A DNA stretch of 64,000 nucleotides, from assembly GCA_040954595.2 (NCBI GenBank), contig CM082596.2, positions 3,899,025 to 3,963,024 on the forward strand, given 5' to 3'. Under the pieces are notes generated by a model. It saw only the letters and a list, made by a program, of their open reading frames with translations. It was not told the origin of the DNA and ran no database searches. Numbering within the stretch: the first letter of the stretch is position 1; each line of letters begins with the position of its first letter. Positions 7,760 to 52,765 of this stretch are shown here, one piece after another. This stretch comes from Balanoglossus misakiensis. Lineage: Eukaryota > Animalia > Hemichordata. Both the position numbers and the translations under genes were made by a program.

Positions 7760-7919
7760 TTTAAGCCAATCAGCGCTCTGTGTTCGCGATAATCATATGG
7801 CACTTCCGGGGTCGTCAATGGGTTGGGCTTCCGGAACGGAAGGCTCCTCGGACTCGTACTACTGAAGATCGTCAGGGAATTCAACGCAAACCTAAGGAGT
7901 TATACTGAACAAAATGGCG
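7760..7919 (+). promoter_or_regulatory. CpG-enriched proximal promoter of EGFR paralog A
   Basis: NF-Y-type AGCCAATCAG (7764-7773), ETS-type CACTTCCGG (7801-7809) and CTTCCGGAACGGAAG (about 7828-7842), YY1/Kozak-like AAAATGGCG over the ATG at 7914. Local CpG density is far above the flanks. Confidence 0.6.
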
Positions 7920-8064
7920 TGGAGGAGGCGACTGAGGATGTGTATCTTTGCTCTGATCGTAATAGGACATCAACTGGTGGGAAAGAGCGACTCTGTCAAA
8001 ACCTGTCAACTGGAAATACCCAGCGATGGTGTATGTGAGGAAAGCGATCGCCCATGTCCTAAAA
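7914..8064 (+). CDS. Exon 1 of paralog A: signal-peptide-like leader plus last Cys module of domain II (EGFR exon 8 equivalent)
   Basis: [50 protein letters not shown], then A|GTAAGT phase-1 donor. Aligns end to end with B 54775-54625 and joins in frame to the L2 exon at 20411. Confidence 0.85.
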
Positions 8065-11000
8065 GTAAGTTACGATTTCGTATGAAGCTAGTAACAGTGA
8101 TTATGTATTGGCGACTATGTACAATGTACAGCTGAAATAAATCACTCGATCGCCCGTGTGTTGTTTACGGTACGGGTCAGATCGGTCGTTCTCGAAGGAG
8201 ATAGACCGATCACAGACTGATCCTTTCAGCTGTACATTTTTTTTCAAACAGGTCAGCCAACCTGTTCAAAGTGTATATGTTCAACACCTTGACAATAAAT
8301 ATTGTCACATAACAACATTCACAATTCTTTATGATATTTGTAAAATTTCCATTCGATGTCATGTCTTTGTTGAGGTTTGGTCCTTGTAGTTTAGTCCACT
8401 GATGCTGAAAACGGGAAAATTTCGCGAATGATAAATTTTTGCGAAGTATGCGAGAGCAAAATAACAGTTGCCTCTTTTGATCTCGCGAAAATTTCCTGCC
8501 ACGAAAATTTCCCGTTTTACAGTATTCACGTTTCTGTATTTTTCACTTCTTTAAAAAGTAAGATATAGTTTCCACCACAAACTCTTGTCTGAGTGAGAAG
8601 AGTTTGTGAAGGCTAAACTCCTCACTTACCACAGTATGCTTCTATTTTTAGACCTAGTTATTGTCATCTTGACATCAACCAACAAACTAATGGCTCTCGT
8701 ATATCTCTGATAAAAAGAAATCTTAGCTATGGCACAAATAATTATGTGAGCATCGTTCACACCACAATGTTCTATCAGTATAAAAGTTCTTCCATTGAAT
8801 GGGTAATTTTGCGGAAAAAAACAGTTCTTGAGAAAATGATAATGCACATGGGAAAGCGTTGATGTCACAGGAAACCTTTAAGTGGGTGGTGTTGCATCCT
8901 TGTGAAGTAAGGATATTTTTAAACAGCCACATAAACACACACTGAGAAAGGCCTACAGGGGTTCACAGGAAGCCCTTTACCTTGTTATATTGGCTGGGAC
9001 TGTCAGCAACTTTTACCTAAAAACTGCACATTATCTTTCTGATCAATTAGTTCAATCTTTAAGGTGGTTAGTCAGAGTTGGCCAGTATTGAGTAACCTTT
9101 TCCTCCATCTGTACTCTCGAGCAAAATTTATGTTTCATAATTGAAATTCAAGTAATATTAAGGCATATGCATATTATGTTTTAGGCAAACAAACAGTTTC
9201 ATTTACATGAGTACTGCGACCCAGTATCCATGATTCACTTGTACTACTTTTGAAACCCCCCTTACAACAGATGTGACTTAATTTGGTCAAGTAGCATAGT
9301 TTGCATGTGTGTGGTTGCACCCACACATGGACGTCTCAAGGAAATGCAGCAGAGGGGTTGAATGATATATAGTGAAAGTGGTTATTTATTGTTCCTGAGG
9401 AAAGGAAACGGAGAAACCCAGGAAGGAAACACAGTCATTCTTTCTATGTCAGGTTGTTAAGTTGATAGGATAAATCATGCAATATTGGTATTCTTGTACA
9501 ATTTGGGCCGGGTTGAAAAAAGGCTATCAAATGGATTTTAATGATTTCCAGATTATCGAAGTACAACATAGTCCATGTGTTGGGTTTCATGTTCAAGGTT
9601 TTAAAGAACTGGTAACATTTTGGTAATGACCTTTGATTCTGATTTCTAAGCTGATCATTAAAAGATGACAGTGCTTAATTTGCAAAACTATCGCAGCAAG
9701 TGGCAAGTCTTTGGCAAGGATGAATTTTAAGTCTTGGACGCTGCAGGCTCATCTGCTCTTGCCTGGATCTGTTACACAGATGCCCTGGTTTTACACAGTG
9801 TGCAATCTACTTTTATATGTGAGAGTAAGCCACAAATTTTTTTATACCCATGATTTATTGTTGAGGCTAGTGAGGATGGGCTAGTTCCTCTTTGGTGATC
9901 TGTTGGTATATCCACTTCAGTCAGAGTGGTTTCCTGTTGACCAGTCAAATATACTGCACAGTGCATGAGATTACATTTGCTTTCAGACCTTGTGTGTTCA
10001 CATCGTTAAACTGGTTATTGTCTGTTGAGATAATTGGTAGTCAGTTCATGTGAAAGAGACTTTCATGTCTGCTCTTCATATACATTGGATTTGTGTTATT
10101 TATTTGCTGATCGAGGCTGTATTACACTTACAGGATGGATGTAGTAATAATTCATTTAGCTTCAGAGCCTTTTGGTTGGTACAATTTGATGCTGTCTGAA
10201 GTGAATTTTTTCAGCTTCTGCAAAGTGTTAAGAATGACTGATCTTTTCAAGGATGACCTTTGCTTTCAAATCCTGGGGTTTATTGATAAATGACAGAATG
10301 ACATCATCATGTATTGTGTCTAGAATCTCAAAGACTATTCTCACTTCAGTTGCCTGAGATGCTGTTTTGACTTCAATGGCCCAATTTTTTTTAATATTTA
10401 AAACCCATATTTGGGTAACAACAGGTTCACTTTCTTGCTCAACAGTTGTTCCAGTGATACATAAAATTTAAATAATAATAAACATTATTAACTATACAAG
10501 TTGTTTTGTACATTCTTGTACAGTGATTCTTGTTCAACGGCTCTGTAACTCATCTTCAGAACTTTGGTTATTTGTGTTGGCTAAGTTTCTTTGTTTTTCT
10601 GAAGTTATCTGCATTGCACAGTACATGTACATGCCATGCTAGCAAAGTCTGCATAATCTAGGGGCATTGCTATTGTACAAATTGAATAGTTCAGACTTGC
10701 GGTCAATTGTCAACAACAACAATAGCGGTTATACATACATTTGTCTACAGTCTGAGTCAACAAGTTGCACGCTACATGTAGTTGTTTTAGTGTGAAAAAG
10801 TAAAAAAAATTGTAGCTAATATTAATGCACAGAACAGAAATTATGAAAAAGTTTTAATGCTACTGTTCCATAAATACTTTGGAACCCAGCCAAATTGAAT
10901 GGTTTAGTATCCATGTCTGAAATCTACAGTCACTGGTTAATTGGGTCAGTCACCAAATATAGTTGTGTGCCCTGTCAACCAGGACAGCGATACTGTTCAT

Positions 11001-14000
11001 TTCAATTGGTACTAATTGATTCACAAAATGTTCAGGAATTATTTGTGAGACCACATGCAGTGTCTAACCTTAAAAAGTTTAATGGATAGGGGCAACATGC
11101 AGGGTCTCAAAATACATACTCTAATGAATTACATCATCATTTATGCACTGAATGTGTACGTGTGTATATGCACGTGTGTGCGTATTAAACATGCTTGCGT
11201 GCTTACACGTTTCATAAATATTAGAATCGCCTGCCAGATAAAAAATTCTAACCACATTCGTATCAATTAAAGTTTGGTATGAAATCACTGAATAAGTTTC
11301 AGATTTTTTTATCGTGTTGATGATTGAATTTGAACAGATTTCTATTAAATAGGCCAACATTTGAACGTAAATTTGAAGTGACAAAGCAAGAGTTGTTTTG
11401 TACACTCATTTCCTGAGCAACACTCTAATGTCCTTATTTAGACCGAATTTAGTCATTACATAAGACCATCTACGTAAGAATTCCATCTGTTCATTGTGTA
11501 AGTTTCCTTTTATTTTGTCTAGGCCGTATCCATTCTGTCGTTACCATATTTTCAAGAGAAAAAGCCCCAGATTCAAATATTGCTAAAATAAAGATAAGGC
11601 AGGCTTGATTTTTTCCTGAACACACCCCATATGAAATTTATTGTCTTAGTGCGTACTGAATACCAGAATGATCAATTCAGTTGTCTAGAACTAGACACGA
11701 ACCCGGGTTCACTTAATTGGTAAGAGAAGAGTGTTAATGGGTGACAGCAGTTGTAGTGAATTTAGATGAGTCAATTTCCTTCAATCAACTTATCGAGTCA
11801 GTAAAATGATTATATGCAAACGAACCTTGGAACTCAATGGTAATTTAATTCAATCCATCAATCTAATAAATTGAAACAACAGGTAGGAAAGCTATAACAT
11901 AAATTATGAATCGAGAGTAGGATTAGGATTGGTCATTTCAGGTATAATATTTCATCTTTTATGACAAGACGTTCACTACAAATTACAATATCCGCCAGTG
12001 TTCTAGAGAGTGCAGGGTTTATATTACATTATCATCATCAGTTGTCAGTAGATTGGCGATAATTGTTCTTTCATGGGTAAAGTAAAAATCATCCTAAAAT
12101 GTCAAATTGCAAATTCTATTCTATAAACACACACTTGTAGAAATACTTTGTAGTGTCTGGTTTAAATTAAACGTTTGTCAGGTTTTGAGGACAGATTGCG
12201 ATATTCGTTTGAATTGCTTGAAATGGGACTATGCATGTACATTTCTCAATGTACAAATTCTAAGTAAAAAGGAAAATGGCCATGAGTCAAGCCCATCACA
12301 ACGTGAGTCAGCTGGTATGATAATTATCTTGCAGAGAGGATTCTGCTAGTCTGTTAAATTTTGAGTATAAATCATATTGTGCCTGAGCTATTTATGGCAG
12401 GAATCCTGACATTGATCGTCAATTCTTGTAGGTTATTTTGCCTGTGCAAAGTTCAATGTCTATGTGTACAACATGTATGTGTACATGTAAATGTCCTAAA
12501 TATTGTGGAATGTCTGAAATGTGTGACGTACATTACAGATGCATATCACTCGAAATTAATCCATGTGCATTACAACTGTTCTATTTCATATTTATGCGAC
12601 CATCTGCAAGGAATATGAAATCTTTGAGTTGGCATTTTGCTTGAGGTTTTCGCACCACTGGTGTGCTAATCTGTTTTACCACAAAATGTATTGCCAAACA
12701 GAAATAAAATCAATGGGGGATTATTAGGAGAATAATCTTTTACTTAAGTGCGGTAATCTTTTAACTAGATTAAATAAGATTAAGATCTGACTTGCCTTGT
12801 ACTTCAGAAAATAAACACTCAAGTCAAATACTAAATGAGCTGCCCGTAGTATCATTCAAACCACAGGTTTGGAATTTATGAAATAGCCTGGGTCGATGTT
12901 TACTGTCAAATGATTCAAGCTGAATTGTAATATAGAGTGGTACTATGAAAAGGAGTATAATTATAAATATTGCCTTGGAATTCAAGGTTATTTATTCAGT
13001 ACAGTCATGGTTAAAGGAGCAAGTGATGAAACGTCATTACTGAAAGATGCTGGTACAAGCATTAATTTTCACTGGTTTGTAATTCTGTGTGTCATATATT
13101 GATAAATCACAGCAATAAATTAAATGTAAAACTACTTGAAAGTTTAGAATTTGACGATATGAGAACTACCGAGTACTTTATTATAATTTTATTCTTGAGA
13201 GACTTCAAACATATATATATATGTGAAGAACTGAATCTATGTTGATAAATTCATTACTGGCTGCTTGAGAAATTAACATGTTTATTTTTCCACTCATGGA
13301 TAAGAAATACCGCCTCACATAAGAAAACAAGAATTCTAATTTGTGTGATTGCAGCAGACAAAATATTTTAGTTAGTCTGATTAATTAAACCAAACAATGG
13401 CTAATCAGATCACTACAGTTGCTAATCAACTCAGGATGTCCACCCTGGTATGTGTGATCAGAAACTGCTGCCTAGACTGTCAGTAAACACTTGCACCTTC
13501 TTTGTCTAAACTTGCAACGCAACCAAGACGAGTTCCATGTATGGAAAGTACGAACCTGAATTCAGTGTTTTATAGATGCTAGAACTGAACGCCGTAAGGG
13601 TGGGAGCAGGCACCAAAGACTGACACAGATAACATGCACGAAACGAAGGCTAAAACAGCACAAGCGATTGGCAGTCTAAATGCTCCCCAGTACATCAACT
13701 ATTCTGTCTGAAATTAAATCTACATTTCACATTTTAGGCCACACCCAAAATAGATCAGTGTAGTTACATGATTACCATCTACCTAGACTGTCACAGAGAG
13801 ACAATTTTTGCACATATTTTGGAAAATTCGTTATGTTTATTTCGGTGGACACACAGATGGCATTGCAACTCAGCCATATCAATATCCTGTCAAAATTAAG
13901 ATATCATTCATGTATATGTGTAGCTATATCAAGTTACAGATTCTACCAAGCAGTAGTTTGTGTCGCAACTATCTGTCAAAAATTATAGATAGATATTTTG

Positions 14001-17000
14001 CGAGTTAGTGCATTTTAGTCACCACATTTTAAAATTAAATATGCACTGACAGTTGTGCAACGTGACTTTTGTGCCAACTGTTCTGACAGGAGTGGCTAAG
14101 AAGAGACTTTACAAAATGTGACTTGAATGAGTTGGACGATGACCTGAATAATGTCGTGAAAGGTCATTGGATGGGGTCACAGAACCTTGATGTATCTGTT
14201 TATAGTAGGGTATGGGCTCTGTAATAACAGAATGAAACTGAATGAAACTTATTTTGAAATCCACCTAGCATGAAGTTTCATGGAGGGTAACCAACATATT
14301 TATCAAGTGAAGCCTTTTTAACAAGGATGTATTCTTACGATGCAGTTGGTGCATTATAAAAGAACCTGATATCCATTACATCTGGAAATGGACAAGTGAA
14401 AACATAATCCAATAACCGAACCATGAGAATGAAATGTGTTCATCACAACATTTGTAACAACTGTGCCTCACGTTTCTGGCCGCAACACTACATGGTTTAT
14501 TTATACGCAGCTGTGGAAGACTGCATTCCTCACATAGCGAGTTGACATCAATATTTTATAGTGGTTAGAATGTGATCCCCAGTGACCATGACACTGTTGA
14601 TCTTCAAAACAGAGAAATGGTATCAGAGAAGCCTTCTTCTAATCCTCATTGCCACCACTTTCGTGATGTCAAACTATCTCCAACTTTCTAGACGCCATGA
14701 AATATTAGCTAGTACGGTAATTGTATCTACTTGTAACCCAGTCTTAGCTCTACCAGAAATAAAAATGTATTTTTGGCAGACAAGAAAAGTATATGCAACT
14801 CTCCACAGCTACAGTGGAAAGAAATGTAACACGAGAGTGTACAAAAACAGACATGACAACACAAAACAGTACATAGACAATACACCCATTGCGAATCTCG
14901 CATATGCGTGCGCAATGTTGACTGTATACCAGAAGTGCAGTTCTTGGAAAAAAGTTGTTCCCGAAAAACTACTCTGTTTTGTGGGGTTTTTTTTGACAAC
15001 TACATTTAAAAGATCAGGAAACTATAACATCCAAGAAATACTATTTAAACACTGTGAGTTGTATGATTCGCAATGGGTGTACAGTGGTGGTTGCAGTGCC
15101 CTAACCTGATGTTAATGATGTGAAGTCCCTCAGGTTTCCAGTGTTGGTGTCTTTGACGAGTTCAAAACAATCTGTTATTTCCCCAAGTCAGAGTCCATAT
15201 CCGCGAATTCCCTGTTAAACATGATGTGGCACACACACAAGTCCCTCAGGTACAAAAGTTCCTCCCTGGTGGAATCACGCTGTTTGACGTTTCGCAAAAA
15301 CTGTTCAGTCGAAGTCGATCATCCAAGCATGCATGGCTACAATATCAGTCTCGCCCCGAATCATTTGTGAAATCTTTTTACATGTTATAGGAGTTCCCCA
15401 GGTGCACTGCTCTGTACAGCTAATTAGTCATGGTAATATATTCATAGCCATTGTTAGCCATGCTCCACTGTCTATTGTTACAGTTTGTGACCCCAATACA
15501 TGTATTCATAAGTGGTGAGCCAGCCATGGCAGTAGATTATGTAATTGGGCATGGAACAGTCCATTTTGTCAGTGTCCACTGATTTTGTTGTTAGTCCTGG
15601 AACAGTCCATTCCATTAATATCGTTTACCTGTCTATCTAACCACCTTACTTAAATACACACTAGGCTACATCCACCACAGCACACATAGATGAGATGACA
15701 GGAGATATAACACACAGATTAGCAATGCAGACACTTTGTGACAGTCGGCTTGTAGAAAACTAGTCGTGGAAAGTAAGAAAGGTGACAGGCCTGAATTATT
15801 ATCTAATTACCCAACTAATGAAATATCTGAAAATAAATGGTTTCTCATAAATTTTCCCATTTTTCTTCTCTGATTAGTTTCCCCAGGGATTGGACGTGGA
15901 GAGAGATTGTGTAATTCTGCTGGTGTTTCTATGATGGGAGGCATAAATAATGCATTCCTAGTTGGTTAAGTTTTTATTGTGATAATGCATAACTTCACAT
16001 CCACAAAGTCATAAAATTAAGTACATACACACATCACAGTGCTCATCAAAAACTTGGTACCAACTGAAATGTTGGCAGAGAAAATGGTTCCTAACATGAA
16101 AATTAAAAAAAAAAATATTAGAGTGTTCATCTTTTTGAGATCATATTTTGAACCAGTATACAAATCTACCCAAGTAATGTTAACAAAGTTCTTGACGTGC
16201 TTTCAAAGATGTTAACTAGAGTTGAAACTCCAATTACCAATCGGTCTGAATGCCTGAAATGTCATCAGGAGGATAAGAATCCTCTCTGATGTAATTTCTT
16301 CCTCCAGACATGTGAAATGTTATCAAGATGACTGCCAGGCATTTCCTTGTGATGTAATTACAAAAATGTGGAGTGTTTGCAAGACAAAATGCCAGAGATA
16401 TACATTTGTACATGTATATTTGAAGTCATGGTGTTGACCTTTGTCCTGCATTTGCACTTTGACATTATATAAAAAAAGGCAGCAGTGTGTCTACATATCA
16501 TATAATCCATGTTGTGTGGATTAGAAGGCATGTTAGGTCATCAGAGCCTCGATGGCTTGATGGCATTTTCAAGGGTGCCTGCACGCCAACCCAGCTATGC
16601 AAAGTTTCAACTACATGTATTATAGTCGTCATTAGTTGTAAGTGAAAAGGTTACAGCGTATTTCTCCCATACAGCAAGCTATGGATCAAGATAATATAAT
16701 ATTTCATAGTGTGATACGTGCTGTGTTCTGGTAATAGACATATTTCTTGTTTAACCCGTGACTCAATACACTTATGAGAGATCATATCTTTATAGGATTG
16801 TCTTTCAAATGTCTTTCCCATACATACAGGGTCAAAAATGTCATTTATTTAGCACCCCAGAAAAAATATAAACCATTATATGATCAGCATGATTTTCAAC
16901 ACTAAATTGGAAGATTATAAATTTCTACAGATATAATCATTAAAAAGTGATAATCATCATGGCTGTATTCACTAAATCAAGAGCAAAGAAAGATTTATTG

Positions 17001-20000
17001 TATATAATGACCTCGCCGATAATTGTTATATGATACGTCATTGTAAATGTCACCTTGGTGTCATTTTAAGACTAATGAAACTCATTCACTACGGGTGTGA
17101 AAACCCTGATGAGTTATGTCTCCTTTCCAAATAGACCCTGTCATGTGATCTAAACAGAGCTGGAAAGTGAGGTTCACATTGGACAGTTTAGGTCGACCCT
17201 GGGCAGCTGTAGGTTTTAATTATAGTTGGCTCGAAATAATCAGTGTGGACACTATATGTTGGACCAGATCGGGACAAATTTGGTAATGTAATGTGAACAA
17301 CACTATGTTCAGCTCTGAGACAAGACTCATTTTTCACATACAATGTAAATATTGAAAGTAAAGAACAGTGTATAAGGCATCGTTTTGTGGCTTTCCCATC
17401 ATGTCCCTGCATTGTTGAGGCTAATGATTTCAAAAATCGAGGAAAAGTACATCTCAAAAAAACCCAACCCAAATAGCGATTGTCTGACTCAAGACATACC
17501 CTAAACTCTTTCCAGATAAACCCAGACAGATGTCTGTCGTCAGATTTATCAGAAGCGTGTAAATATTTAGCTGTAAAATTCATATTTGAAATGCATAGTT
17601 ACAGTACTATTTCTGTATGAGTGGGTGGGTGTACGGTATATATCATGGCAAACAGAATCAAAAGGTTTTTGGCTCCTCAGTGTCTATATTTTCTCAGTGG
17701 AAGGCATAGATGGTTGTTGATCTGACTAAACTAGTGAGAATGATGAACGGCATACATCATTAAGCAAAGACTCTGGCAATTGGCCATGCTACCTAGGCGT
17801 ACCATGTACATGAAAAGATTTTATTTCACCACGAAATGATGTGTGTGCGTTCTGGTGTGGGGATAGGGGGCTATGGTTGTTTACAGCGCTAAAAGAGCGA
17901 GGCCCATGTTATATTGGGTTCACAGAACTCACATCATGAAGACTGATAATACATGTGTGCTGATTGATGTGGTGTATGGTCTTGCAATATCCTGTTAGTT
18001 TGATGGGTACCGTGAGATATTATTGATGTGGTCTATGGCAAACATGTCAGGATTACTTGGTGTGCAGTGACCTACAATGTTCCTTCAAGGTAATGTTGAC
18101 CTCTTTACCCAGGGTAAACTTTGAGATGCCAGGGGGGTCAAAACAAAAATGGAGGAAAGTATCCCGGACCAATTAGTGGAGTTCCTGAGGACAACACCTG
18201 GCTTGGGAGATCTTGAAAACCAAGGTTGTGTGTGACTTCAATATTAGCCTTGAGGAGATGGTATCAGTAATGTGACAGATGTAATCTGTGCATTCCATTA
18301 CTATAATAGAAGAATTTGTTTGCTCGAAAATGACCAGTTCTTGTTTTATATCAGTATTTGTTTTACTTCTTTATAACATTTCAAGTGCATCCCACTTGAG
18401 TTAAGCCATGTGATCTTGACAAGTAAATGTCTCAGTCTTGAACAGAGATACGCCTATTAGTATTAACATCTCATTATCATTTGTGTGAAACTGCTCAATA
18501 ATTGTGAGTTGGGAATATGTGAATTTTGGCACAGCTTGGGCCTGAGACTCCTCCAGCCCTTCCCCAAAGCTTTCCTTTCGGTGCGATAATTTTCTCTAGC
18601 TTTATCACCCACCGGTCTTCTTTAGTGGGCAGGACATTTCCCTGTACAACAGTGGAACAGCTAGCTGTGTAGTAAATGTATTGATGTCTTGGCGCCCTGC
18701 ATCACGTTTGGTTGTTTGTCCCCTTGGTCTATCTGTATTCATCACACCTAAGAGTGAAGGTCACCACGGCAGACAGCAGACATTCTGCGAAAATAAAGTG
18801 GCTCATTTCAGTGTCTCTACTTTATTGTTGTCAAATCTACGTGTCTTTCACAGCGTGATGTGACCTCTGTACAGAAAAAATGGTGTGAAATCTTGAAGGA
18901 GTTCCTGTAAAATGAGAGCTGTTTGGTTTTAGGGAAGGGCTGGAGGAAGTGTTTGTGAGATAAAAAGAAGTGTGGCCAACAAAGCAGCAGGTCTTTAGTT
19001 TGAATCAATTTCCTTTCTTTTCCTCCTATAAGGGTAAAAAAGACATATTTTGTAAATTTTCAATATTTATGTCATTCAGTTTATTTCATCCTTACATGGT
19101 TTCTTCCCGTTCATCCTTGACTCAAGGAACTGAAATACACCAGGGAGATGAAATAAAAACATTGTCTCTTTTACAGACCTTCGGTTTATTGTCAGACCTT
19201 GGGTTTACTGTCAACAGTTGCTTGTACCAACATTGCTGTGCTTCAGCCATTAATTTGACAAAAGGAATTTAGGAGCCATTTTGTTTTTTGTCCACTGGCC
19301 ATGTACTAATGAACATGCCCCGTGGGTGTGTATGGTGACACATTGGAATACTTAGACATAGCTTAGAATCCAAGACACTGAAATGTGTCAAATTTTTGTT
19401 GCCAGACAAGAAAAATAACTTCACTGAAGAAATATGGTTGCATATTCGAATACAGGATGTAATCATGCCCTCTTAGCAAATATGTTATGTTACCGACTCA
19501 AAAAAAATTCACAGATGATGCACGAAAAATATCCATATTATATATGTTTTAACTGATACAAAGAAATTACTAGAAATTCTAAAATTGACTGGCAAGTTTG
19601 AAACAGGCATGGTTATTAGGGGCACAGTGGACAACTTTAAGTCGTGTTACCATATCTACAGTCAAGAGTTAATCTGATAATACAAATGAATGATAATGTA
19701 TACCAGGAGATGCATTTAATATGGAAGAAGGAAAGATTGTGCCACTTCCTAGGAAAGGTCAAAGACTGTGAGGCAAGCACAGAGGAGAGTTTAGTCTGTG
19801 GTTTCTCACTATAAAACGAAATGAGAGCAAGTGTTGTTTTATTGGCATTGCAGTTGACATTATAAGACAGACCTCAAGATGACAACCAAGCCAAACGGCC
19901 CCAGTTGCTGTCCCTCCCAATGCATCATGGGAAACGGAATACATGTATACATCATGTAATTCCCATATTTAATGCATTGATATGTGTACTTGTTGAAACA

Positions 20001-23000
20001 TTGTTTTATGTACATATATGTGTTTCATTGTGGCCACATTTTTGGACCCTAAAAGGTCACTGAGGTCAGAGAGATGCTGTGTGGGTAATCTGATCTGTCA
20101 AATCATCACCCTGACTAAGCTTACACTTGAATGGTTGGTCTGGTGTAGGTTTCAGACACTGTTGGTGATTTATTACCTCGTGCAAGGAAAGAAATGACAA
20201 TCATCCGAATCATCTTGTCGCTATATCCATACACAGTCAATAAATAGAAAAGGGGATTTCTCTCTCTCTCTCTCTCTGTTTTCAAATTGCTCCTAAATAT
20301 TCTGCTTTTACCTATAAAAATGTTGCCTTTAGTAACAGAATGAAACCAGCTGAATGTGTTAACTTTGAGCCCCGCATCTGACAATACTTGTCTTGTTTAT
20401 TTCATTCCAGTTTGTCCTGGAGTTCCTATAAATCAAGACTCTAGAGATTATGGTGCCATAACTGAAGAAAACATTGAATGCTTCAAAAATTGCACAGTTA
20501 TTAATGGAAGTATTGTGATAACAGCATCTACCTATGATGGGTAAGTTTTACTTGAAATGCGATTTGAAGAGCTCCCTCACACAAGATGCTTGAAGTTTCC
20601 AATGCAGTATTGAGTGATGAGTAGACAGCCATATGTGCTGTTGCCTGGTTGGTCAATAGGTGTATATTGTACAGCCTGAGCAACACACACACACCCAATC
20701 TATATAGGTAACAGAGTAGGACCAGTTGCATTCAAGGGTTTCTTTTTCTTTCTTTTAGTGATCCCTTTAGAGGTCTTATAGGACTGGAAGCTGATCAGAT
20801 AGCAAATCTCAAGACAATCAGAGTAGTCACTGGTTTTGTTTCAGTGAAGCATTCTGCGGCGTACCAAGATGACCTGGCAATCTTTGAAAATTTGGAGGTA
20901 ATTCAAGGAAATGAGCTCTACAGGTGAGAAATGTAAGGTTTTGATTGTGTATGGGATATGAGCCTATGTGTCATCAAGTGTGCTGTGATTCTGTACACAC
21001 ACATGTAGATAATTAGTATACATGTAGTGGTACCATTTCATGCTTTAAGACACTTGCAAGCGCCTCTTGTAATGCCGAGTTTGTACTTCTGTGGCTAGAC
21101 ACAATCTTACACTGCAGTGTGGCTTTAACCAAGCTCTTGCTTTTTTTGAGTAATCTATGATTGGTTTAATCATGCATTTTTATGGCTAAGTTGGCGAAGT
21201 TTCCATGCTCTTGCTAAGCTCTATTTCAAACTTTTTGAAACTAAAAGTGTTATCATCTCGGTATTACATCAGAACTGTTGCACTGTGCAATACTGATTCA
21301 CAAATGCAAACGAACCCATGGTTTCTGAATGTACGCATGTACATGTGTATATGTATGTATGTTACTGTTAGATTGCTGACAGAAAGATGCATAAGATGCT
21401 TCACATTCTCAAAAGTATTGTAGACTAGAAAAGTACAGAAGATGGGAAAAGTAATTTGCTTAAACTTTATATATAATTTTATGTGGTGTAAATAAGTTTA
21501 GTAATAATTCAGAGGTATGCATACAATGTAAATACATGCAATTCAAACCGTGTAGTTTGTAGATTATCAGTCTGACTTTATCCGCATATTGCTTTCATTG
21601 TCACTTGGTGTTGTTCTGTCACTCACTTCTCTCTCGGCTCAAGCCAATTTGCAAACATCTTTGATGTTTCTATGCCTTAAGATGGGTGGTATGTCTCTGC
21701 CTACCAATGCTGGTACCCACAGCAATGCCCCTAGCAACAGAGGTGTGCCCTTAATAACTGCCCTGCATGAACATGTACTTATAATTTCCCTTTTGCTCTG
21801 CCTGTAACACTTATAATTACTCACTAATTTGCTAATTAACCTTGGTTTTCTGTTATCCACACGACACCCTGCCTTTAGAAGTGGTTAGAACCCCTTGTCA
21901 AGTTGAAAAGCCTGAGCACGCTGCACGTATATGTTATTTTTTTAAATATTAGAAGTTATGATTATATTTTGTTTATATACTCTTTGAAATAAAGGTGTGA
22001 TGAGCTGAGCAAAAGCCTTAGCGATCCTAATGACAAGGCCGAAGTTTGTGAGATGTCACCACGGTCAGTTAAAAATTTTTCAACGTTTGTTAAAATGGTT
22101 GCGTTGTCGTGTTGACATGCAACTAACATGCATGGCCATCCTTCAAAGTTTCATTCCCTTGTTAAGTCAAAACTAGATGCTGCATTATAGAAACAAAGCT
22201 TCATTTTCCTTTCATTATAAGTTGCTAGGAAATAGGCAGGAATGTTTGGGCCGAAGTCATCAAACCAAATTGTCGTTTTCCATCTCTGTCTGTCAAGGCA
22301 AGAATGACTTCTTTGCAAACTTTCTGACCTATTTTTCAATGCTCCCCAGCTTTCATAGCGATAAATAGTGTCCACAGTTCTGTAAGTCTGAGACCATCCC
22401 CATTCATTTCTGAACAGTCTAGGTTTACTGTTCTATAGCGAATTGCTAAGATCATGGACACATCTCGAGTAAAATTGCTTCAAAATACTCCATTGCCAGT
22501 TGTCAAATTAGACTGTCATGAAGTAATCTTCTAGTATTTCATCAACACATCTGTCATATTCACTCAAGTCTGTTATTAAATACTGTCACTTGGGTTTAAG
22601 GTTATTCAAACTAACCTCAGTTGAAAAATACTCCTCTTTGAATTCATTCTGTGGCAGCTTTCTCGATGTATAGTTACTGAATAACAGATGTCTTATTTCA
22701 GAGGGTATGCTCTAACCGTACAAGACACAACTGTGACATCCCTTGGTCTGGTTTCACTGCGAGAAATCAGTGATGGAAGTGTCTTCATCCGGAAGAATCC
22801 TAAGATGTGTTATGTCTCCCCAGATATGTTTAGTACTGTCCTTCAAGATACAGAAACTCAAAAAGTTTCAATACGAAGGAATAAAGATACAACAGACTGC
22901 AGTGAGTAGAACAGCTATTCTGAATAAAAAATAAATAAACAACAAGTAGTTGTCGTTGTTTGGCTATTGCTGTTATGATTGTCATCATATATGCTTACCT

Positions 23001-26000
23001 TTGGACTTTTCTCTGCTGTTGCAAATACAAGATAAACTGTACCAGTTCTCCACACATCTGTATGGAACAACAACTTGTTGTTATTTATTTATTTAGGCGA
23101 AGAAGTGACATGGTCATGAATTATTCTTTTTACACATGACTATGATTTATTGGATTTTTCAAGGAAGAATATATTAAGTATTCATGTCCTCTTTGACATG
23201 TCATAATATTAAATGTGTATATATTGCAATTTACAGGTGACGAAGGTTCTGTTTGCCACGAACAGTGTACGGATATTGGATGTTGGGGACCAGGTGCCGA
23301 TATGTGTGTAGAATGTAGTAACTACATCCTGGGAAAAAGATGTGTTGAAGAGTGTGACATCAACAATGGGTAAGATTTCTCCCCGTTATTGCAAACCAAA
23401 TTTAGTCAGTGCGAAACCAAATTTAGGCGATAAACTCTATAACACACTTGAACATCCTAATTCTGATCAAATAGGAGCAGTGTTCTTGATTCCATGTTTT
23501 ATTCTGTTAATACTAATTGCAGTTTATTTTGTGATTTTGATTAGGCAATATGTAAGCTCAGAGACTGACAAGGAATGCGGTCTCTGCGATTCACAGTGTA
23601 ACGGGTCATGCAATGGTCCAGTAAGTATCCATGGTTAATCTTCAAAGTTGATGGAATTTAAGATAATGGTTCATTTTGATATATATTTCAGTATGCATAA
23701 CTTGTTTTAGACACACAGGACTTACTTTGTCTCTGATACTGTTCTTCCTTGAACAGGGAGCATCAAACTGTACTTCATGTAGAAATATGCAAGACGGTCC
23801 AATGTGTATGGAAGAGTGTCCAATAACAAAGTATCCAGATGGAAATTCTGTGTGTCAAGATTGCCATGAAAATTGTAGATTAGAAGGTGAAAATCCTGGG
23901 TAAGTTGAAAGTCTAAATTTATCTGATTATTGATAATTTATATGTACTTCTGAGAACTTATTACCAATTTAGCTTCATGCAAACTGGCTTTTAGAATTTA
24001 TCTGATCACAATTTGTGTCATGTATTGTTTCTATAGGTGCACAGGTCCACTTCGAATTTTTGGTCAAGGTGGATGCAAATCGTGTCGTCAAGTGCTCATC
24101 AATGCCAGCAATCCAGATGTAGTAAGTCTTTACTAAACTACTCATAGAAATTAAAACAGTACTGACTGACAAATGATGAGATAGAAATCCTTACCAATCA
24201 TCCCTTGCTGTGTATTTCACCTTTGTAAATGGAATATAGTCTTCTTTTAAAAACATCTCTGTATGGTTCTGTGAACAGATTAGCCTGGGTTTGTATTATA
24301 TAAGTTAAGTTTATCATATATCTTTCATGATATTTTTACAGCTTTGTATGAATACTAATGATGGCTGCCCAGAAAGGTACTTTGGGAAAGTCCACCTGGT
24401 TGATCAATACAAGAATTCATTGGTAAGTTATTTATCTTTCTCTAGAGTAATTGTGTATCAATCATGCTTTCTTGTTTGGCCTCTGAGGCATGGTTGAGTG
24501 CTTAGTGTTAATCTTCTAAACGTAGCCCACATGGACTTGAATATAGTTGTTAACAATAACAAAGATCGACACATACATGTACTTGTGAGTTACTGGCAAG
24601 CAGAATACTGGTTGTGTTGGGCCAGAAGTTACAGATAGTAGCCCTTTAAGCAATGAACCTTGGGTTTAAATCGTAATTTGTGATATTTATTTCAGGTCTG
24701 TAGCTCATGCGATGCGGAATGTCTGTCATGTAGAGATGGTGGCAATGACAACTGTACAGAGTGCCTTAACTACCGGCAAGGAAGGTTTTGTGTTCCTCGG
24801 TGTTCACCTAACTTTTATGCGGACGAAGATAACATCTGTCAAAAATGCAATGGAGAATGCCTTGACGGTTGCTATGGTGACAGTCCGGCTCAGTGTAATG
24901 AGTGCAAGAATTATGAAATTCCACTGGATCTGGAAAACGCTGAAGTATCGGTGAGTGTAATTTAGAAAAGTAAATGGTAGATGAAGATTTATAGGAATAT
25001 TGTCAGCTTTTTGAGTGACTCCATAGTCTCAAAATGTCTAAAGTCGAAGTAGTCTATAGTGGCCAGTCAAGTGACTTTCCTAAACTGGCCTTTATAGACA
25101 GGTGATCTTTGTAGAGAGGTCAATCAATGTATATGTTAACTGTACAGGAACCGTAACAAAGTGGCCACTATATAGAGGTGGCCACTATATGAAGGTGACC
25201 ACCACTAAACAGGTTTGACTGTATATTGTATTGTCGTCTTCCAGGTTTGTGTGTCGGAGTGCCCGGCTGACAAGCCATACATCATGGATGGTAAAGTGTG
25301 CGTCAGCAACTGCACTGGAAATACCTATGTCAATGAAGACAACCACTGTATGCCATGTCATGAACAGTGCCAGGATGGCTGTCTGGATGAGACTGTGAGA
25401 AGCTGTATACGATGCAAGCATTACAACTCGTTACAAGGTTGTGTGGATTTTTGCCCGTCAAATCGTACTGAAAACGGAAGATGCATGATCATAGGAGACC
25501 CACCACAAGATTCTAGGTATGATTTGAATTGTAATCGACTGTAAAACTTTCAACAGATGCTTCGAAAGTCATTTAGGAATATGTTTAAATCTGGAATTTT
25601 ATTGTACATGTGTTATGCCAACTTTGCAGTGATGAAACAAGGCATTGTGCTCTGTTTAACCATCGCTTGCATACATTAATAGAGGGTCTTAGCCAATCAC
25701 GACACTGTATCTGTGGCACTGTTGCACTGATATAATGTAGTATAAAATACACCCTGATAATACTATAGTTCTTCCTCTTTTACTTAACAGTGTTGAAGTC
25801 ATAGTTGGTTGTGTAGTGGCTATTTTAGGTGTTGGTATTATTGTCCTGCTTGTCGTCGTTTACTACTTGAGAAAACGACATATGGAAGAGAAGACAAGAA
25901 GATACATGGAGGAGGAATATGTAAGTGTTTGTCAGTTGTGATGTGAGGGGGAGGAGTCCTATTGTTAGAGGAGAATTTTAGGCTGTGAATGTTGCTCGGC

Positions 26001-29000
26001 AAAACTGTGTCAAGTGAGCAGCAAGAGTTCCTAACATCCTAACATATGCTTGTTTGAAAAGGCGAATGAGTTCGTCACAGAAACCCAGCTATCTCGTATT
26101 AGTCATTTTAGATGTTTTGAATTCAACTTTCATATTTTATGAGCAAAGCACGAGCATAAGTTTTAGGATTTCTAGTTTCAAAATCAGATGAAACTTGAGT
26201 TATTGGTAACAGCATGAAAGTTAATCGCTATCATTGTTAAGAAATGTGAATTTTGCCAACGTTCTGTTGTTTGTTGTTATAGCCAGTTTTGCGAAATAAC
26301 ATTTTTTCTTGTTTCTGCTTTGCATGCGAATCGCTGCAGACCATGGATACATTTGCAGAGGTAAATGATTATTGGCAATTCTAAATCCCAAGTTTGCGCA
26401 GCAGTCGAAAAAAGCTTTGTCTTTTGGTGTTTCATCGTGCTTTCATGTGCAATATTGTATTGACATGCATTATTGTTTTGAATTATAACATTTGTTAGAA
26501 CTCCAAAATGACATGATACAATTATTGCTGCTCTGTGTGTGTATATATCTTCTTTGGATTGTTGTAATACTTGTATTAAATCATGAAGACCATTGAACAC
26601 TCCAGTTCTTTGATTCATCGTCTTTCTGACATTCTTTCTCACACAGCCTCTTTCTCCAAGTGGTGCAGAACCCAACAAGGCATTTCTCCGAATCATCAAG
26701 GAAACTGAACTCCAGAAAGGTGGAATTCTTGGAGCTGGTGCTTTCGGAACAGTGTATAAGGTTAGAAGAGATTTTCTGAAAACATAATTGGGATCACTAA
26801 ACTTGCATACAAGTCTGTAGAGAAAATAGAGCTGAGTCTGTGATTCAGTTGTCTAAAGGTTGAAATATCACAGTATGCGTGTGTGTTTATCTCCTGCAGG
26901 GTTTATGGGTACCTGAAGGTGACAATGTACGTATTCCTGTTGCAATCAAAGTCATGAGAGAAGGTATTTCAACCAAAGCTAATCAAGAACTACTTGAGGT
27001 AAGATGTATCTCTATTGTTGTCTTTTCAGCCAGGCCACAAAACTGTCATTCTAATATTATAGCTTGAATATTAAGCAACAGGGAAACGTGTTCATTGTTG
27101 AATGTATGTGAATGCTTACTGTATTTTGTTTCCTTGGTTACAGGAAGCTTATGTCATGGCAACTGTGAACCACAAACATTTGGTACGGTTGCTATGCGTG
27201 TGTATGTCACAAAACATGATGTTGATAACACAACTAATGCCATTAGGAGCGCTACTGGACTACATCCGTGAGCACAAAGACAAGGTCAGCTCCCAACATC
27301 TTCTCAATTGGTGTACGCAAATCGCCAGAGGTATGGTGTACTTGGAAGAACACAGATTGGTCCATCGCGATCTGGCGGCCAGGAATGTACTTGTGGAGAG
27401 TCCTACAAAAGTGAAAATTACTGACTTTGGTCTGGCCAAATTCATCGAAATTAATGAAGAAGAATACAAAGCAGAAGGTGGAAAGGTGGGTTAATAATGA
27501 TACAAGGTCATCCCTAGGTCAGAAAGGGTGAATATTGAATATATTGACTCCATTTTTCAGGATATTATTCATAAATATTAATCTACTATGATAATGAGAA
27601 TAAAAACAGAGATTGGCTAAGAGTATGGTTATCAATTCTAAAATGTTGATTTATTTTTGTTTGCAGATGCCAATCAAGTGGCTAGCATTGGAGTGTATAA
27701 CTTACAGGAGATTTACTCATCAAAGTGATGTGTGGAGTTTTGGTGTCACGGTGTGGGAACTCATGACCTTTGGGGGCAGACCGTACGAGGGGATCAAAGC
27801 CCGAGATGTGCCTCACATGCTCGAGATTGGTGAGAGATTGTCGCAGCCTAAAATTTGCACCATTGATGTTTATATGATCATGTTAAAATGTAAGTACTAG
27901 TAGTCAAATTAGCTCTGTTTATCAGTTTGTTATTTCAGGTGTATTAAGCGTGACAATTTAGTGATTTGTTGTCTCCTAATGCATCATAAGACAATGTGAT
28001 CAACCTGTGATTATAGCTGTACTTTAAATAGGAACAAGAGTTTACAACTATGCACAAAGGGTATTAGAATCTCCCAAAATTCAAAATGTCTGACTTTAAT
28101 TATGAAAAAAGATAAGCATCGATTAAAAATATGCTATAAAATATGCTAAAAGTGGCAATTATCGGGGCTTTAATAAACTTGATTAAAAGGACAAAGTCTC
28201 TCTCAAAATTTCAAAATGGCCGCCAAATTTGAGGTTCAAAATGGCCGCCGATATCTGTGCTTAGTCTATGGCATTCAAAATGGCCGCCAAATTTAGTGAC
28301 TTTGAAAATCTCTATGGTAAACATTATGTAGAAATTTTACTCATAGTTCAACCACACACACCTTCCATCCCACTTGTAGACGCGAGAGCAAAATGAATAT
28401 TCGGTGTTTACCATTTATTCATTTTGGCGAGAAAGACTTCCACAAGTGTAGCAAGTCACTATGGAGATTGACAGTTATAATTAATATTTAAAAAACTAGC
28501 AAGATTTTCAACAATGAAGATGACAGCGTAGACCACAAGGATTGGTTAGTTTGATGAGGAACTGTTAATCTTGCACGATTGATTGAGGTTGATATGGTTG
28601 TTACATGCCATGCAATGAAAAATACCAGGAGAGATAACATTGTGTTTAAAACTTTATTTATTTCTAAAGGTTGGATGTTAGACGAGAACAGCAGACCGAC
28701 ATTTACAGAGTTGGTGGATACATTTACGAAAATGGCACGAGACCCACAGCGGTATCTGATGCTTGAGGTATGAATGGAAATATTTTTGGCAAAGTTTGCA
28801 TGACAATTTAGCAAAATGGAGATGGTCTTCATTCTTACCAGAAGTGGTGGCAGTACCTCATCCTGTTTAATGGGCTGTTTAAACCTGTTGAATGATAGAA
28901 AAATAATTTTAATAGAAAACTTGTATTTAGTAAATGTAAGTGCTAAAGCGCGTAGCTCGTCTCACACGCATGTTCCAACTGTAACTGCTGGTTACAGACG

Positions 29001-30527
29001 TTTAGTGAACCTACAATCCCATAAGGCAGTGCTCACACAAGATGGCGGCGCCCATAATCTGTGTCAATCCCATAAGGCAGTGCTCACACAAGATGGCGGC
29101 GCCCATAATCTGTGTCAATCCCATAAGGCAGTGCTCACACAAGATGGCGGCGCCCATAATCTGTGTCAATCCCATAAGGCAGTGCTCACACAAGATGGCG
29201 GCGCCCATAATCTGTGTCAATCCCATAAGGCAGTGCTCACACAAGATGGCGGCGCCCATAATCTGTGTCGGAGATCGGGAAAAGACACTAGCTTGGGTGA
29301 AAAGGAGGGACAAAACCAGAATCTACTTATACGGTGCGCATGAAATATGGAAGGAAGCGAAGGCAGTCCACTATTTGAATGCCTCGAATGGAAAATTTGC
29401 TGGGAAGTTACGCGCATGCGGGTAAGATGAGCTACGCTCTTTAAGCAGTGTTACTCTCCAGATTTATTGTAACATGCATTTTCCAACAGAGTGAATGTAA
29501 AGAGCCTTTGCCAAGCCCATCAAAAGAGGAATTTTACCGCAATCTTATCCCGGATGTGGACGGACCAGAGGTACTGATGGATGCAGACGACTACCTGCAA
29601 CCTGTGTCAACAACTCTGAGTGACAGTGGCAATAGCAATGATGGCGTTCCACATGCATATACATATGTACATGACCCAGGCAGTCCTGTGGTACGTTGAC
29701 TTTATCAGTATGGCAGAGACAAATCCTTTGATGGCCGTGTTTTTTGGTCAATTTTGTTTTTAATACGAAAAGTTGTCTATGCTGTATCATTTCGTGAAAC
29801 ATGATTAAATATTGGGGGGCGAGCATGTCTTTAGTGTTGTTTATGAAAGACAAGATCAATCAACACACATAATACAGTAAACAAGATCAGTCGCACAAAC
29901 ATTAAAGCCCAAGGGAGTGTCCGCTTAATACAGTTAAAAAATTTAAGGGACTGACAGAGTGGCACAGTTAGAAAATTTAAGGGACTTACCGAGTAATACA
30001 GTTAAAAATTTAAGGGACTGACCGAGTAATACAGTTAAAAATTTAAGGGACTGACCGAGTAATACAGTTAAAAATTTAAGGGACTGACCGAGTGGCACAG
30101 TTAAAAAATTTAAGGGACTGACCGACTAACACAGTTAAAAATTTAAGGGACTGACCGAGTAATACAGTTAAAAATTTAAGGGCTTGACCGACTAATACAG
30201 TTAAAATTTTAAGGGGCTGACCGACTAACACAGTTAAAAATTTAAGGGACTGACCGAGTGGCACAGTTAAAGAATTTAAGGGACTGACCGACTAATACAG
30301 TTAAAATTTTAAGGGACTGACCGACTAACACAGTTAAAATTTTAAGGTACTGACCGACTAACACAGTTAAAATTTTAAGGGACTGACCGACTAACACAGT
30401 TAAAACTTTAAGGGACTGACCGACTAACACAGTTAAAATTTTAAGGGGCTGACCGACTAACACAGTTAAAAATTTAAGGGACTTTCATGTATTTACACTT
30501 TTTTTTTCATAGGAAAGCAATGCATAG
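7914..30527 (+). CDS. EGFR: EGFR/ErbB-family receptor tyrosine kinase paralog A; N-terminally truncated (no domain I, only last module of domain II), short C-tail, about 977 aa
   Basis: Exons 7914-8064, 20411-20540, 20759-20923, 22702-22901, 23237-23369, 23545-23620, 23757-23899, 24037-24121, 24342-24422, 24696-24950, 25245-25516, 25791-25920 (TM), 26340-26360, 26647-26760, 26900-26998, 27144-27485, 27667-27889, 28670-28767, 29490-29690, 30513-30527. All introns are GT-AG and the exons total 2934 nt in frame. Encodes the L2 domain ([19 protein letters not shown]), furin-like Cys repeats, a TM helix, the kinase ([34 protein letters not shown]) and DADDYLQP. The last exon is the least certain. 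Confidence 0.88.
8405..8522. mobile_element. Short MITE-like element with terminal inverted repeats
   Basis: CTG-AAAACGGGAAAATTTCG ... CGAAAATTTTCCCGTTTTACAG(TA); about 21 bp imperfect TIRs with internal GCGAAAA subrepeats. Confidence 0.6.
25024..25223. mobile_element. Degenerate MITE-like remnant next to an exon acceptor
   Basis: Internal repeats of TATAGA(C/G)AGGTG(G)CC and a terminal ACAGGTTTGACTG-TA, resembling Tc1/mariner-type CAGTCAAACCTG ends. The left end is decayed. Confidence 0.45.
26340..26360 (+). CDS. 21-nt juxtamembrane microexon of paralog A (TMDTFAE)
   Basis: CTGCAG|ACC ATG GAT ACA TTT GCA GAG|GTAAAT, phase 0-0; homologous to the B microexon PLDTFAE. Confidence 0.8.
28209..28432 (+). 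repeat. Dispersed repeat copy 1 (about 224 bp, three TTCAAAATGGCCGCC motifs)
   Basis: Near-identical direct copy at 31281-31504 (2 mismatches seen). The upstream ATCAACCTGTGATTATAGCTGTACT is also shared (about 27999 and 31233). Confidence 0.9.
28941..29447. mobile_element. MITE-like element with about 32 bp imperfect TIRs enclosing a tandem array
   Basis: Left end TGCTAAAGCGCGTAGCTCGTCTCACACGCATG versus reverse complement of the right end TGCTTAAAGAGCGTAGCTCATCTTACCCGCATG. Confidence 0.6.
29014..29268 (+). repeat. Perfect 51-bp tandem repeat, 5 copies
   Basis: Unit CAATCCCATAAGGCAGTGCTCACACAAGATGGCGGCGCCCATAATCTGTGT, identical copies, no spacers. Confidence 0.97.
29911..30483 (+). repeat. 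33-bp minisatellite, about 17 copies
   Basis: Unit approximately CAGTTAAAAATTTAAGGGACTGACCGA(G/C)TAA(T/C)A; an isolated unit recurs near 31197-31227. Confidence 0.95.
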
Positions 30528-31280: not shown

Positions 31281-31504
31281 TTTCAAAATGGCCGCCAAAT
31301 TTGAGGTTCAAAATGGCCGCCTATATCTGTGCTTAGTCTATGGCATTCAAAATGGCCGCCAAATTTAGTGACTTTGAAAATCTCTATGGTAAACATTATG
31401 TAGAAATTTTACTCATAGTTCAACCACACACACCTTCCATCCCACTTGTAGACGCGAGAGCTAAATGAATATTCGGTGTTTACCATTTATTCATTTTGGC
31501 GAGA
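31281..31504 (+). repeat. Dispersed repeat copy 2
   Basis: Direct copy of 28209-28432. Confidence 0.9.
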
Positions 31505-32312: not shown

Positions 32313-32526
32313 CTAATTTAAATAATTGCCAAGCTAAATTGTCACAAATCAAAAATGGCCGCCATGCTAATTTTCATAATTGCCAAGCTAAATTGTCACA
32401 AATAAAAAATGGCCGCCATGCTAATTTTCATAATTGCCAAGCTAAATTGTCACAAATCAAAAATGGCCGCCATGCTAATTTAAATAATTGCCGAGCTTAA
32501 TTGTCACAAATCAAACATGGCCGCCA
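32313..32526 (+). repeat. 54-bp tandem repeat, about 4 copies
   Basis: Unit TAATTGCCAAGCTAAATTGTCACAAATCAAAAATGGCCGCCATGCTAATTTTCA. Confidence 0.93.

Positions 32527-52705: not shown

Positions 52706-52765
<60 letters not shown>

What the first reader, a model, noticed from the sequence alone, without database searches (positions are those of the whole stretch)
7914..30527. Germline-encoded EGFRvIII-like receptor gene: an intact EGFR paralog that begins at the exon-8 equivalent
Seen: paralog A has an uninterrupted 20-exon frame and an intact kinase. Its first exon is a basic/hydrophobic leader fused to the last Cys module of domain II, spliced straight to domain III. The NPEPPS stop lies only about 2 kb upstream, and no L1/CR1 exons are visible between the two genes. 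Established: human oncogenic EGFRvIII deletes exons 2-7 and joins the signal peptide to exon 8 (NYVVTDHGSCVRAC...CKKCEGPCRK). It loses domain I, the dimerisation arm and the II-IV tether, does not bind EGF, and is constitutively active. The breakpoint here is the same exon. Inference: this animal carries a dedicated normal gene for a ligand-independent ErbB receptor or co-receptor beside its full-length parent. I do not know of this being described.
Basis: partly seen in the sequence, partly recalled or inferred. Interest (0 to 1): 0.95.

Follow-up and report, generated by a model that had tools for sequence, protein, structure and literature searches.

The report
Acorn worm natural EGFRvIII-shaped receptor family
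Acorn worms carry intact growth-factor receptor genes that begin where the human brain-tumour variant EGFRvIII begins, using a start sequence from an intron of the full-length parent gene; they lack the free cysteine that switches the tumour form on, so they likely act as ligand-blind partner receptors rather than always-on oncogenes.

Summary
Confirmed and extended. Paralog A is an intact 20-exon, 977-aa EGFR gene without domain I, the dimerisation arm or most of the tail. It sits under the window's strongest CpG island and is under purifying selection. The host is an acorn worm near Ptychodera flava, which has two kinase-bearing orthologs; Glandiceps has another such gene, and both have kinase-less versions.

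New here: A's leader is not a moved exon 1. It is homologous to the last 49 nt of the parent's intron before the exon-8 equivalent, where parent B keeps an in-frame ATG and leader (8 of 16 residues identical to a P. flava leader, best of 7228 sites). B likely makes a short isoform too.

Most likely A is a ligand-blind, kinase-active partner signalling through B's tail (inferred, about 0.5). No expression data were obtained. My searches of an open-access library found no description.

The parts
6700..8200 (+). CpG-rich promoter region of A, with CCAAT (7766) and CCGGAA/TTCCGG motifs (7804-7831)
   Evidence: CpG o/e 1.32 in the 500 nt before the ATG, 99th percentile, window median 0.45; start site not mapped
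7914..8064 (+). A exon 1: intron-derived signal-peptide-like leader (7914-7965) fused to the exon-8-equivalent end of domain II; orphan Cys replaced by Ser27
   Evidence: 10 of the first 18 residues identical to P. flava XP_070569573
20411..22901 (+). A exons 2-4 (20411-20540, 20759-20923, 22702-22901): domain III (L2)
23237..25516 (+). A exons 5-11: domain IV plus the extra invertebrate Cys-rich repeats
   Evidence: Pfam on the ortholog
25791..26360 (+). A exon 12 (transmembrane helix) and 21-nt microexon 13 (26340-26360)
26647..28767 (+). A exons 14-18: juxtamembrane segment and intact tyrosine kinase, 91% identical to B
27210..27575 (+). Likely recent gene-conversion tract shared with B (42261-41896, minus strand), including intron sequence
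   Evidence: 356 of 367 columns identical; exon-16 dS 0.25 against 0.65 to saturated in the other exons
29490..30527 (+). A exons 19-20: short tail, 81 residues and 5 Tyr from the end of the kinase; AATAAA at 30897 and 31043
54625..54775 (-). Parent B: in-frame ATG and 16-codon leader at the intron's 3' end (54775-54727), continuous with the exon-8 equivalent (54726-54625); predicted alternative first exon
   Evidence: CRE palindrome at 54890 but no CpG island
37909..58168 (-). Full-length parent EGFR (B), 27 exons in the window, 1477 aa without internal stops; its signal-peptide exon was not found in the window
20143..20213 (+). 71-bp non-coding element conserved in the same long intron of A and B (48654-48584, minus strand)
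   Evidence: 84.5% identity, only these two full copies in the window

Best explanation
A is an intact EGFR paralog that starts at the EGFRvIII breakpoint using a leader taken from the parent's intron, and it likely works as a ligand-blind, kinase-active partner that would pair non-covalently with full-length EGFR and signal through the parent's tail. Shown: gene structure, loss of domain I, dimer arm and distal tail, intact kinase, purifying selection, orthologs, homology of the leader to the parent's intron end, and loss of the orphan cysteine. Inferred, origin: an internal start in the parent gave a short isoform in an acorn-worm ancestor (about 0.75 that B still makes it); partial duplications from that start founded kinase-bearing genes and kinase-less decoy-like genes. 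Inferred, processing: signal peptidase would cut at or next to the orphan-cysteine position, so the mature protein begins at the last Cys loops of domain II without that free thiol. Inferred, mechanism: with no domain I it cannot clamp an EGF ligand and has no tether; it would dimerise through transmembrane, juxtamembrane and kinase contacts, adding basal or amplified phosphorylation on B's docking tyrosines, as HER2 does for its partners (HER2 comparison recalled).
For: 977-aa frame, 20 canonical exons; CpG island at exon 1; dN/dS about 0.14 and 0.075. P. flava XP_070569485 and XP_070569572/573 share the start, one L domain and a short tail and group with A at 98/97 and 100/99; G. talaboti XP_077991296 has the same architecture. 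B's intron end is the best non-self DNA match to A's leader among 7228 AG-ending 49-mers and the best match to the P. flava XP_070569575 leader among 1241 open ATG 16-mers and 7228 sites, 8 of 16 identical without gaps. Orphan position is S, T, I, G, S, L, S in 7 of 7 short genes and C in 4 of 4 full-length acorn-worm EGFRs; that Cys is needed for EGFRvIII dimers and activity. Juxtamembrane and kinase are conserved: 221 of 234 non-Cys kinase columns invariant in the full-length set are kept in A, against 52 of 79 in domain III. Tails of 77-87 residues with 3-5 Tyr, no NPxY and no RYSxDP, against 328 residues and 19 Tyr in B. The proximal tail described as autoinhibitory in human EGFR is kept.
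Against: No transcript, protein or signalling data. The window's A has Ser at the C305-equivalent and a new Cys at residue 74; the mature count is even (58) but the two may be free thiols. Ectodomain-deleted and tail-deleted human EGFR mutants are active without ligand. B's internal start has no CpG island (o/e 0.55); none of the 13 P. flava full-length-cluster isoforms is short; against the three A-type leaders B's leader ranked only 4th-5th of 1241; its DNA score of 41 ranks 4th of 19 orthologous intron ends; and 4 of the other 43 acceptors (B 47083, 44885, 42327; A exon 6) also have an in-frame hydrophobic ATG peptide. The full-length Saccoglossus tail also has no NPxY. The cleavage site is a -3/-1 reading by eye; it fits 5 of the 7 short genes at that exact position; SignalP was not available.
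Confidence: 0.5

Rival explanations
1. A is a stand-alone, constitutively active receptor like EGFRvIII or Xmrk, kept in check by where it is expressed.
For: Same ectodomain boundary as EGFRvIII; intact kinase; the RYSxDP motif, recalled as the Cbl site, is absent; human ectodomain and tail deletions activate without ligand; in this species C48 and C74 may be unpaired.
Against: Orphan Cys replaced in 7 of 7 short genes; the P. flava orthologs and the Glandiceps gene have even mature Cys counts and all four module cysteines; few docking tyrosines; a CpG-island promoter suggests broad expression (inference).
Confidence: 0.2
2. A is an attenuator: it pairs with B but, lacking ligand binding and docking sites, yields weaker dimers, alongside the kinase-less members as decoys.
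For: Short tail in all kinase-bearing members; kinase-less relatives with hydrophobic C-termini in P. flava and G. talaboti; 8 N-glycosylation sequons against 4-6 in the same region of full-length forms.
Against: A pure inhibitor would not need a catalytically intact kinase kept at 88-91% identity, though gene conversion from B helps to hold it.
Confidence: 0.17
3. A is still ligand-dependent, binding an EGF-family or new ligand through domain III and the long Cys-rich region.
For: Domain III is kept and is predicted to fold (pLDDT 79-92 over most blocks of residues 51-220 in the P. flava ortholog); it is under constraint.
Against: Domains I and III bind one ligand together and EGFRvIII does not bind ligand; short-form ectodomain branches are two to three times longer than the parent's.
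Confidence: 0.1
4. A is a full-length EGFR whose first exons lie upstream of the aminopeptidase gene or are missing from the assembly, or it is an unexpressed relic.
For: The AG at 7964-7965 still scores 4.5 bits as an acceptor, inside the range of true sites, with 9% of 710 intron-1 AGs scoring higher; DNA before position 1 could not be read.
Against: Orthologous RefSeq models in two other species start at the homologous Met; the leader is as conserved as the ectodomain; CpG island at exon 1; a full-length form would need the Cys that is Ser27 in A.
Confidence: 0.03

Closest known systems
Human EGFRvIII (de2-7 EGFR)
   Same: Signal peptide joined to the exon-8 start; no domain I or dimerisation arm; kinase intact.
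   Different: Germline and conserved, not a somatic deletion; leader comes from the intron, not exon 1; the free Cys16 is replaced; tail cut to about 80 residues; extra invertebrate Cys-rich repeats.
Xiphophorus Xmrk (ONC-Xmrk)
   Same: A germline duplicate of an EGFR gene beside its parent (PMC8150686 passages).
   Different: Xmrk is activated by two ectodomain point mutations that cause constitutive dimers; A lost domains instead and purged the orphan cysteine.
HER2/ERBB2 as ligand-less co-receptor (role recalled)
   Same: No ligand, no tether, active kinase, predicted to act through partners.
   Different: HER2 keeps all four domains, a dimer arm and a full tail (recalled); A has neither arm nor distal tail.
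EGFRvIV tail deletions and v-ErbB (v-ErbB recalled)
   Same: Loss of C-terminal tail sequence in a kinase-active EGFR.
   Different: EGFRvIV removes the proximal autoinhibitory part from residue 959; A keeps that part and loses the distal part.
RefSeq 'EGFR-like' models of P. flava (XP_070569485, XP_070569572/573, XP_070569575) and G. talaboti (XP_077991296, XP_078000404, XP_078000013)
   Same: Same start, one L domain; the P. flava kinase-bearing ones are orthologs of A.
   Different: Automatic names only; three have no kinase; whether the Glandiceps kinase gene is an ortholog or a separate birth is open (AU p 0.08).

Membership tests
EGFR/ErbB family | ErbB-type tyrosine kinase with catalytic motifs | tested here: met
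   ortholog's best PDB hits are EGFR/ERBB2-4
EGFR/ErbB family | L1-CR1-L2-CR2 ectodomain with two L domains | tested here: not met
   One L domain in A and orthologs, two in P. flava full-length; a derived truncated member by descent
EGFRvIII-type receptor | Ectodomain starts at the exon-8 boundary behind a signal peptide | tested here: met
   signal peptide judged from hydrophobicity only
EGFRvIII-type receptor | Free Cys16 (C307 precursor) that forms the active disulfide dimer | tested here: not met
   Replaced in 7 of 7 short genes; present in the predicted short isoform of B
EGFRvIII-type receptor | Full C-terminal tail | tested here: not met
   81 residues against 328 in B
EGFRvIII-type receptor | Constitutive phosphorylation without ligand; no EGF binding | not testable with these tools
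   Needs cell assays
HER2-like co-receptor | Heterodimerises with a ligand-binding ErbB | not tested
HER2-like co-receptor | Exposed domain II dimerisation arm | tested here: not met
   The exon holding the arm (B 56249-56108) has no counterpart in A
Xmrk-type activated duplicate | Ectodomain substitutions that give constitutive dimers | tested here: inconclusive
   Window A has S44 and a new C74 with an even total; orthologs do not

The most novel reading that the evidence does not exclude
Acorn worms have domesticated the EGFRvIII architecture: the parent EGFR gene makes a second, full-tailed, domain-I-less isoform from a start inside the intron before exon 8, its signal peptide carries away the cysteine that makes the human tumour form covalent, and this isoform has been duplicated more than once into ligand-independent kinase partners and kinase-less decoys that together set EGFR tone without ligand.
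Probability: 0.35. Interest if true: 0.88.

Novelty: new variant of a known kind. Interest (0 to 1): 0.72.

Why it matters
The domain-I-less EGFR is known as a tumour lesion. A normal, selected family with the same boundary shows which changes let an animal live with it: loss of the orphan cysteine in every stand-alone copy, and a short tail. That supports the Cys16 model of EGFRvIII activation from evolution and gives natural constructs for asking what a domain III-first ErbB does without a covalent dimer. It is also a clear case of a signal peptide born from the polypyrimidine end of an intron, with the likely parent form still in place 47 kb away.

Tried and rejected
No genome is held for this window. 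No RNA holder was listed for 22600-28800, so no reads were laid; this says nothing on expression. Word-index searches with A exon 1 and exon 4 found nothing. The sigma-70 scan does not apply to an animal. Rfam: no match. Earlier findings: none in four look-ups. A paper search for the LVI motif found nothing, so the LVI-to-LML change with a new Cys in the three ptychoderid short forms is not interpreted. The kinase half of the AlphaFold model was low-confidence and was not used. Separate origins of the Glandiceps and ptychoderid kinase genes are suggested by a 97/96 branch but a single clade is not rejected (p-AU 0.08). Of the 150 listed representative hits (of 735), 56 bore a kinase; 4 passed the one-L-domain plus signal-peptide filter: P0166 (real case), P0267 (two L domains by Pfam), P0261 (only the first L domain, probably a faulty model) and P0254 (one L domain, divergent kinase, unnamed). 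Eight other kinase-bearing one-L hits lack a leader and look like incomplete models. The Cys-pair microexon of the P. flava and Glandiceps models was not found in A or B. Rejected: leader from B's exon 1 (it matches the intron), pseudogene (no stops, low dN/dS).
Full report
Observation. Twenty exons between 7914 and 30527 have canonical splice ends and give 977 residues without a stop. The kinase motifs are intact. An M1 aminopeptidase gene stops 1961 bp upstream, and tblastn with full-length acorn-worm EGFRs finds no L1 or CR1 exon in between. The full-length parent B lies tail-to-tail on the minus strand: 27 exons, 1477 residues, its signal-peptide exon not found in the window. The 500 nt before A's ATG have CpG o/e 1.32, the 99th percentile of the window (median 0.45), as expected of an unmethylated promoter (inference). 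A against B gives dN 0.39, dS 2.8 (near saturation) in the ectodomain and dN 0.05, dS 0.68 in the kinase (B's distal tail was mis-modelled in that call and corrected, which does not touch these values).

Host and relatives. The kinase exon is 96% identical to Ptychodera flava, 93% to Glandiceps talaboti and 89% to Saccoglossus proteins, so the host is an acorn worm close to Ptychodera. P. flava has two RefSeq genes with A's architecture (XP_070569485; XP_070569572/573) and a 547-aa fragment, on a contig of the same length as its full-length gene and with neighbouring accessions. They group with A on ectodomain trees (98/97; 100/99) and share 10 of the first 18 residues. A search of 1.84 billion representatives (735 hits, 150 listed) added a G. 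talaboti kinase-bearing short gene (XP_077991296) and three kinase-less genes with the same start: P. flava XP_070569575 and G. talaboti XP_078000404 and XP_078000013; two of the three end in a clearly hydrophobic stretch, possibly a membrane or GPI anchor (inference). These are computed gene models; I did not see their transcript support.

Where the leader came from. EGFRvIII deletes residues 30-297 (PMC5492017, passages). B has a phase-1 intron in the matching codon, and A starts there. In B, the last 49 nt of that intron begin with ATG and read in frame as [16 protein letters not shown]. This stretch is the best non-self DNA match to A's leader among 7228 AG-ending 49-mers (41 against 32 for the next). 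It is also the best match to the leader of P. flava XP_070569575 among 1241 open ATG 16-mers (38; next 26, which is A itself) and among the 7228 sites, 8 of 16 identical with no gap; tblastn aligns residues 1-51 at 61%, E 2e-18. The Glandiceps kinase gene aligns from residue 2 at 37%, E 3e-9; both E-values include the exon part. So the leaders of these short genes descend from the parent's intron end (shown), and the parent's copy looks constrained as coding sequence (leader dN 0.35, dS 1.17 over 17 codons). Against a live internal start in B: no CpG island there, no short form among 13 P. flava isoforms, rank 4-5 of 1241 against the three A-type leaders, rank 4 of 19 among orthologous intron ends, behind the microexon and conversion-adjacent introns, and 4 of 43 other acceptors carry an in-frame hydrophobic ATG peptide. 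I put the parent isoform at about 0.75. Ptychoderid short and full-length ectodomains group together to the exclusion of the Glandiceps short gene (99/99; 97/96), which suggests separate births, but one clade of short kinase genes is not rejected (p-AU 0.08), and conversion between paralogs could give the same tree. The tree left out the kinase-less genes, fragments and amphioxus row.

The cysteine. The EGFRvIII deletion removes C295 and leaves C307 (C16 of the mature protein) unpaired; C16S abolished the dimer and cut phosphorylation and tumour growth (PMC3757403, abstract and passages). The matching residue is Cys in 4 of 4 full-length acorn-worm EGFRs aligned and S, T, I, G, S, L, S in 7 of 7 stand-alone short genes. 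In five of the seven, and in B's predicted isoform, it sits at a plausible -1 position of a signal-peptidase site (by eye), so the cysteine may be cut off even in the parent isoform (inference). One result cuts the other way: the window's A has Ser44 in place of the C305 equivalent and a new Cys74. The mature count stays even (58), which fits a rewired bond but does not show one.

The tail. From the end of the kinase A has 81 residues and 5 Tyr, the P. flava orthologs 87 and 5, the Glandiceps gene 77 and 3, with no NPxY and no RYSxDP; B has 328 residues, 19 Tyr, three NPxY and one RYSxDP. That these are Shc and Cbl sites is recalled. The proximal segment that stabilises the inactive state in human EGFR is kept. 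Constraint is uneven: of non-Cys columns invariant in four full-length proteins, A keeps 221 of 234 in the kinase, 52 of 79 in domain III and 64 of 88 in the Cys-rich region. An AlphaFold model of the P. flava ortholog (mean pLDDT 66.6) is confident over most of residues 51-550 and weaker (58-61) over the retained domain II loops. A 366-bp tract in kinase exon 16 and the next intron is 97% identical between A and B, likely a recent conversion, so part of the kinase conservation is not independent.

Mechanism. Domains I and III grip one ligand together, so A likely binds none with useful affinity; it has no tether and no dimer arm. It keeps the transmembrane, juxtamembrane and kinase surfaces, and few docking sites of its own. 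The reading that fits all of this is a ligand-blind, non-covalent partner whose kinase works on the parent's tail (0.5). Rivals are a constitutive stand-alone receptor (0.2), an attenuator (0.17), a receptor for some ligand (0.1) and an annotation or assembly artefact (0.03). No step of signalling was tested.

Novelty. A belongs to the EGFR family by descent and is shaped like EGFRvIII, but fails two defining features of it (free Cys16, full tail). The metazoan survey PMC4914847 (passages, section 4, tables; supplements not read) lists one EGFR in Saccoglossus, calls architectures highly similar and does not tabulate L domains, so its entries with one Cys-rich domain could hide similar forms. 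Xmrk is the known germline activated duplicate, by point mutations (PMC8150686, passages). Searches of the open-access library gave 3, 9, 0, 0, 0 and 26 papers (others listed, seen as listings only) and none of the listed ones describes these genes; subscription journals and genome-paper supplements were not searched. An unnamed 774-aa protein with a leader, one L domain and a divergent kinase, and kinase-less one-L proteins in Saccoglossus, Drosophila busckii and Aphidius, suggest that domain III-first derivatives also arose elsewhere. Verdict: real, a new variant of a known kind, interest 0.72.

Noticed in passing
window 27210-27575 (+) and 42261-41896 (-): 97% identical tract covering most of kinase exon 16 and the start of the next intron; likely recent gene conversion between the inverted paralogs.
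   Followed up: yes
window 20143-20213 (+) and 48654-48584 (-): 71-bp non-coding element, 84.5% identical, in the same long intron of A and B although synonymous sites are near saturation; candidate enhancer or splicing element.
   Followed up: partly
window 34100-35000: Second CpG-rich island (o/e up to 1.24) between the 3' ends of A and B, with no protein match looked for; may be the promoter of an unrecognised gene or non-coding RNA.
   Followed up: no
window 26288-26360 (+) and 43246-43177 (-): 21-nt juxtamembrane microexon kept in both paralogs, with a conserved upstream intron end (score 42).
   Followed up: partly
window 29490-29500: The three ptychoderid short forms share LML and a new intracellular Cys just after the kinase where full-length forms have LVI and Gly; the Glandiceps short gene keeps LVI.
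   Followed up: partly
proteins P0164, P0169, P0188, P0192: Kinase-less domain III-first EGFR derivatives in P. flava, G. talaboti (two) and Saccoglossus; candidate decoys or anchored co-receptors.
   Followed up: partly
proteins P0254, P0256, P0266, P0268: One-L-domain EGFR derivatives outside the acorn-worm set: an unnamed one with a divergent kinase, and kinase-less ones (Drosophila busckii, Aphidius gifuensis, one unnamed).
   Followed up: partly
window 29014-29269, 29911-30483, 32313-32526: Minisatellites of 51, 33 and 54 bp, and a 224-bp segment duplicated at 99% (28209-28432 and 31281-31504).
   Followed up: no
proteins P0002, P0121, P0004, P0141: A two-Cys insert inside domain III in several acorn-worm models, alternatively included in P. 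flava (P0121 against P0122); not found in the window's A or B.
   Followed up: partly
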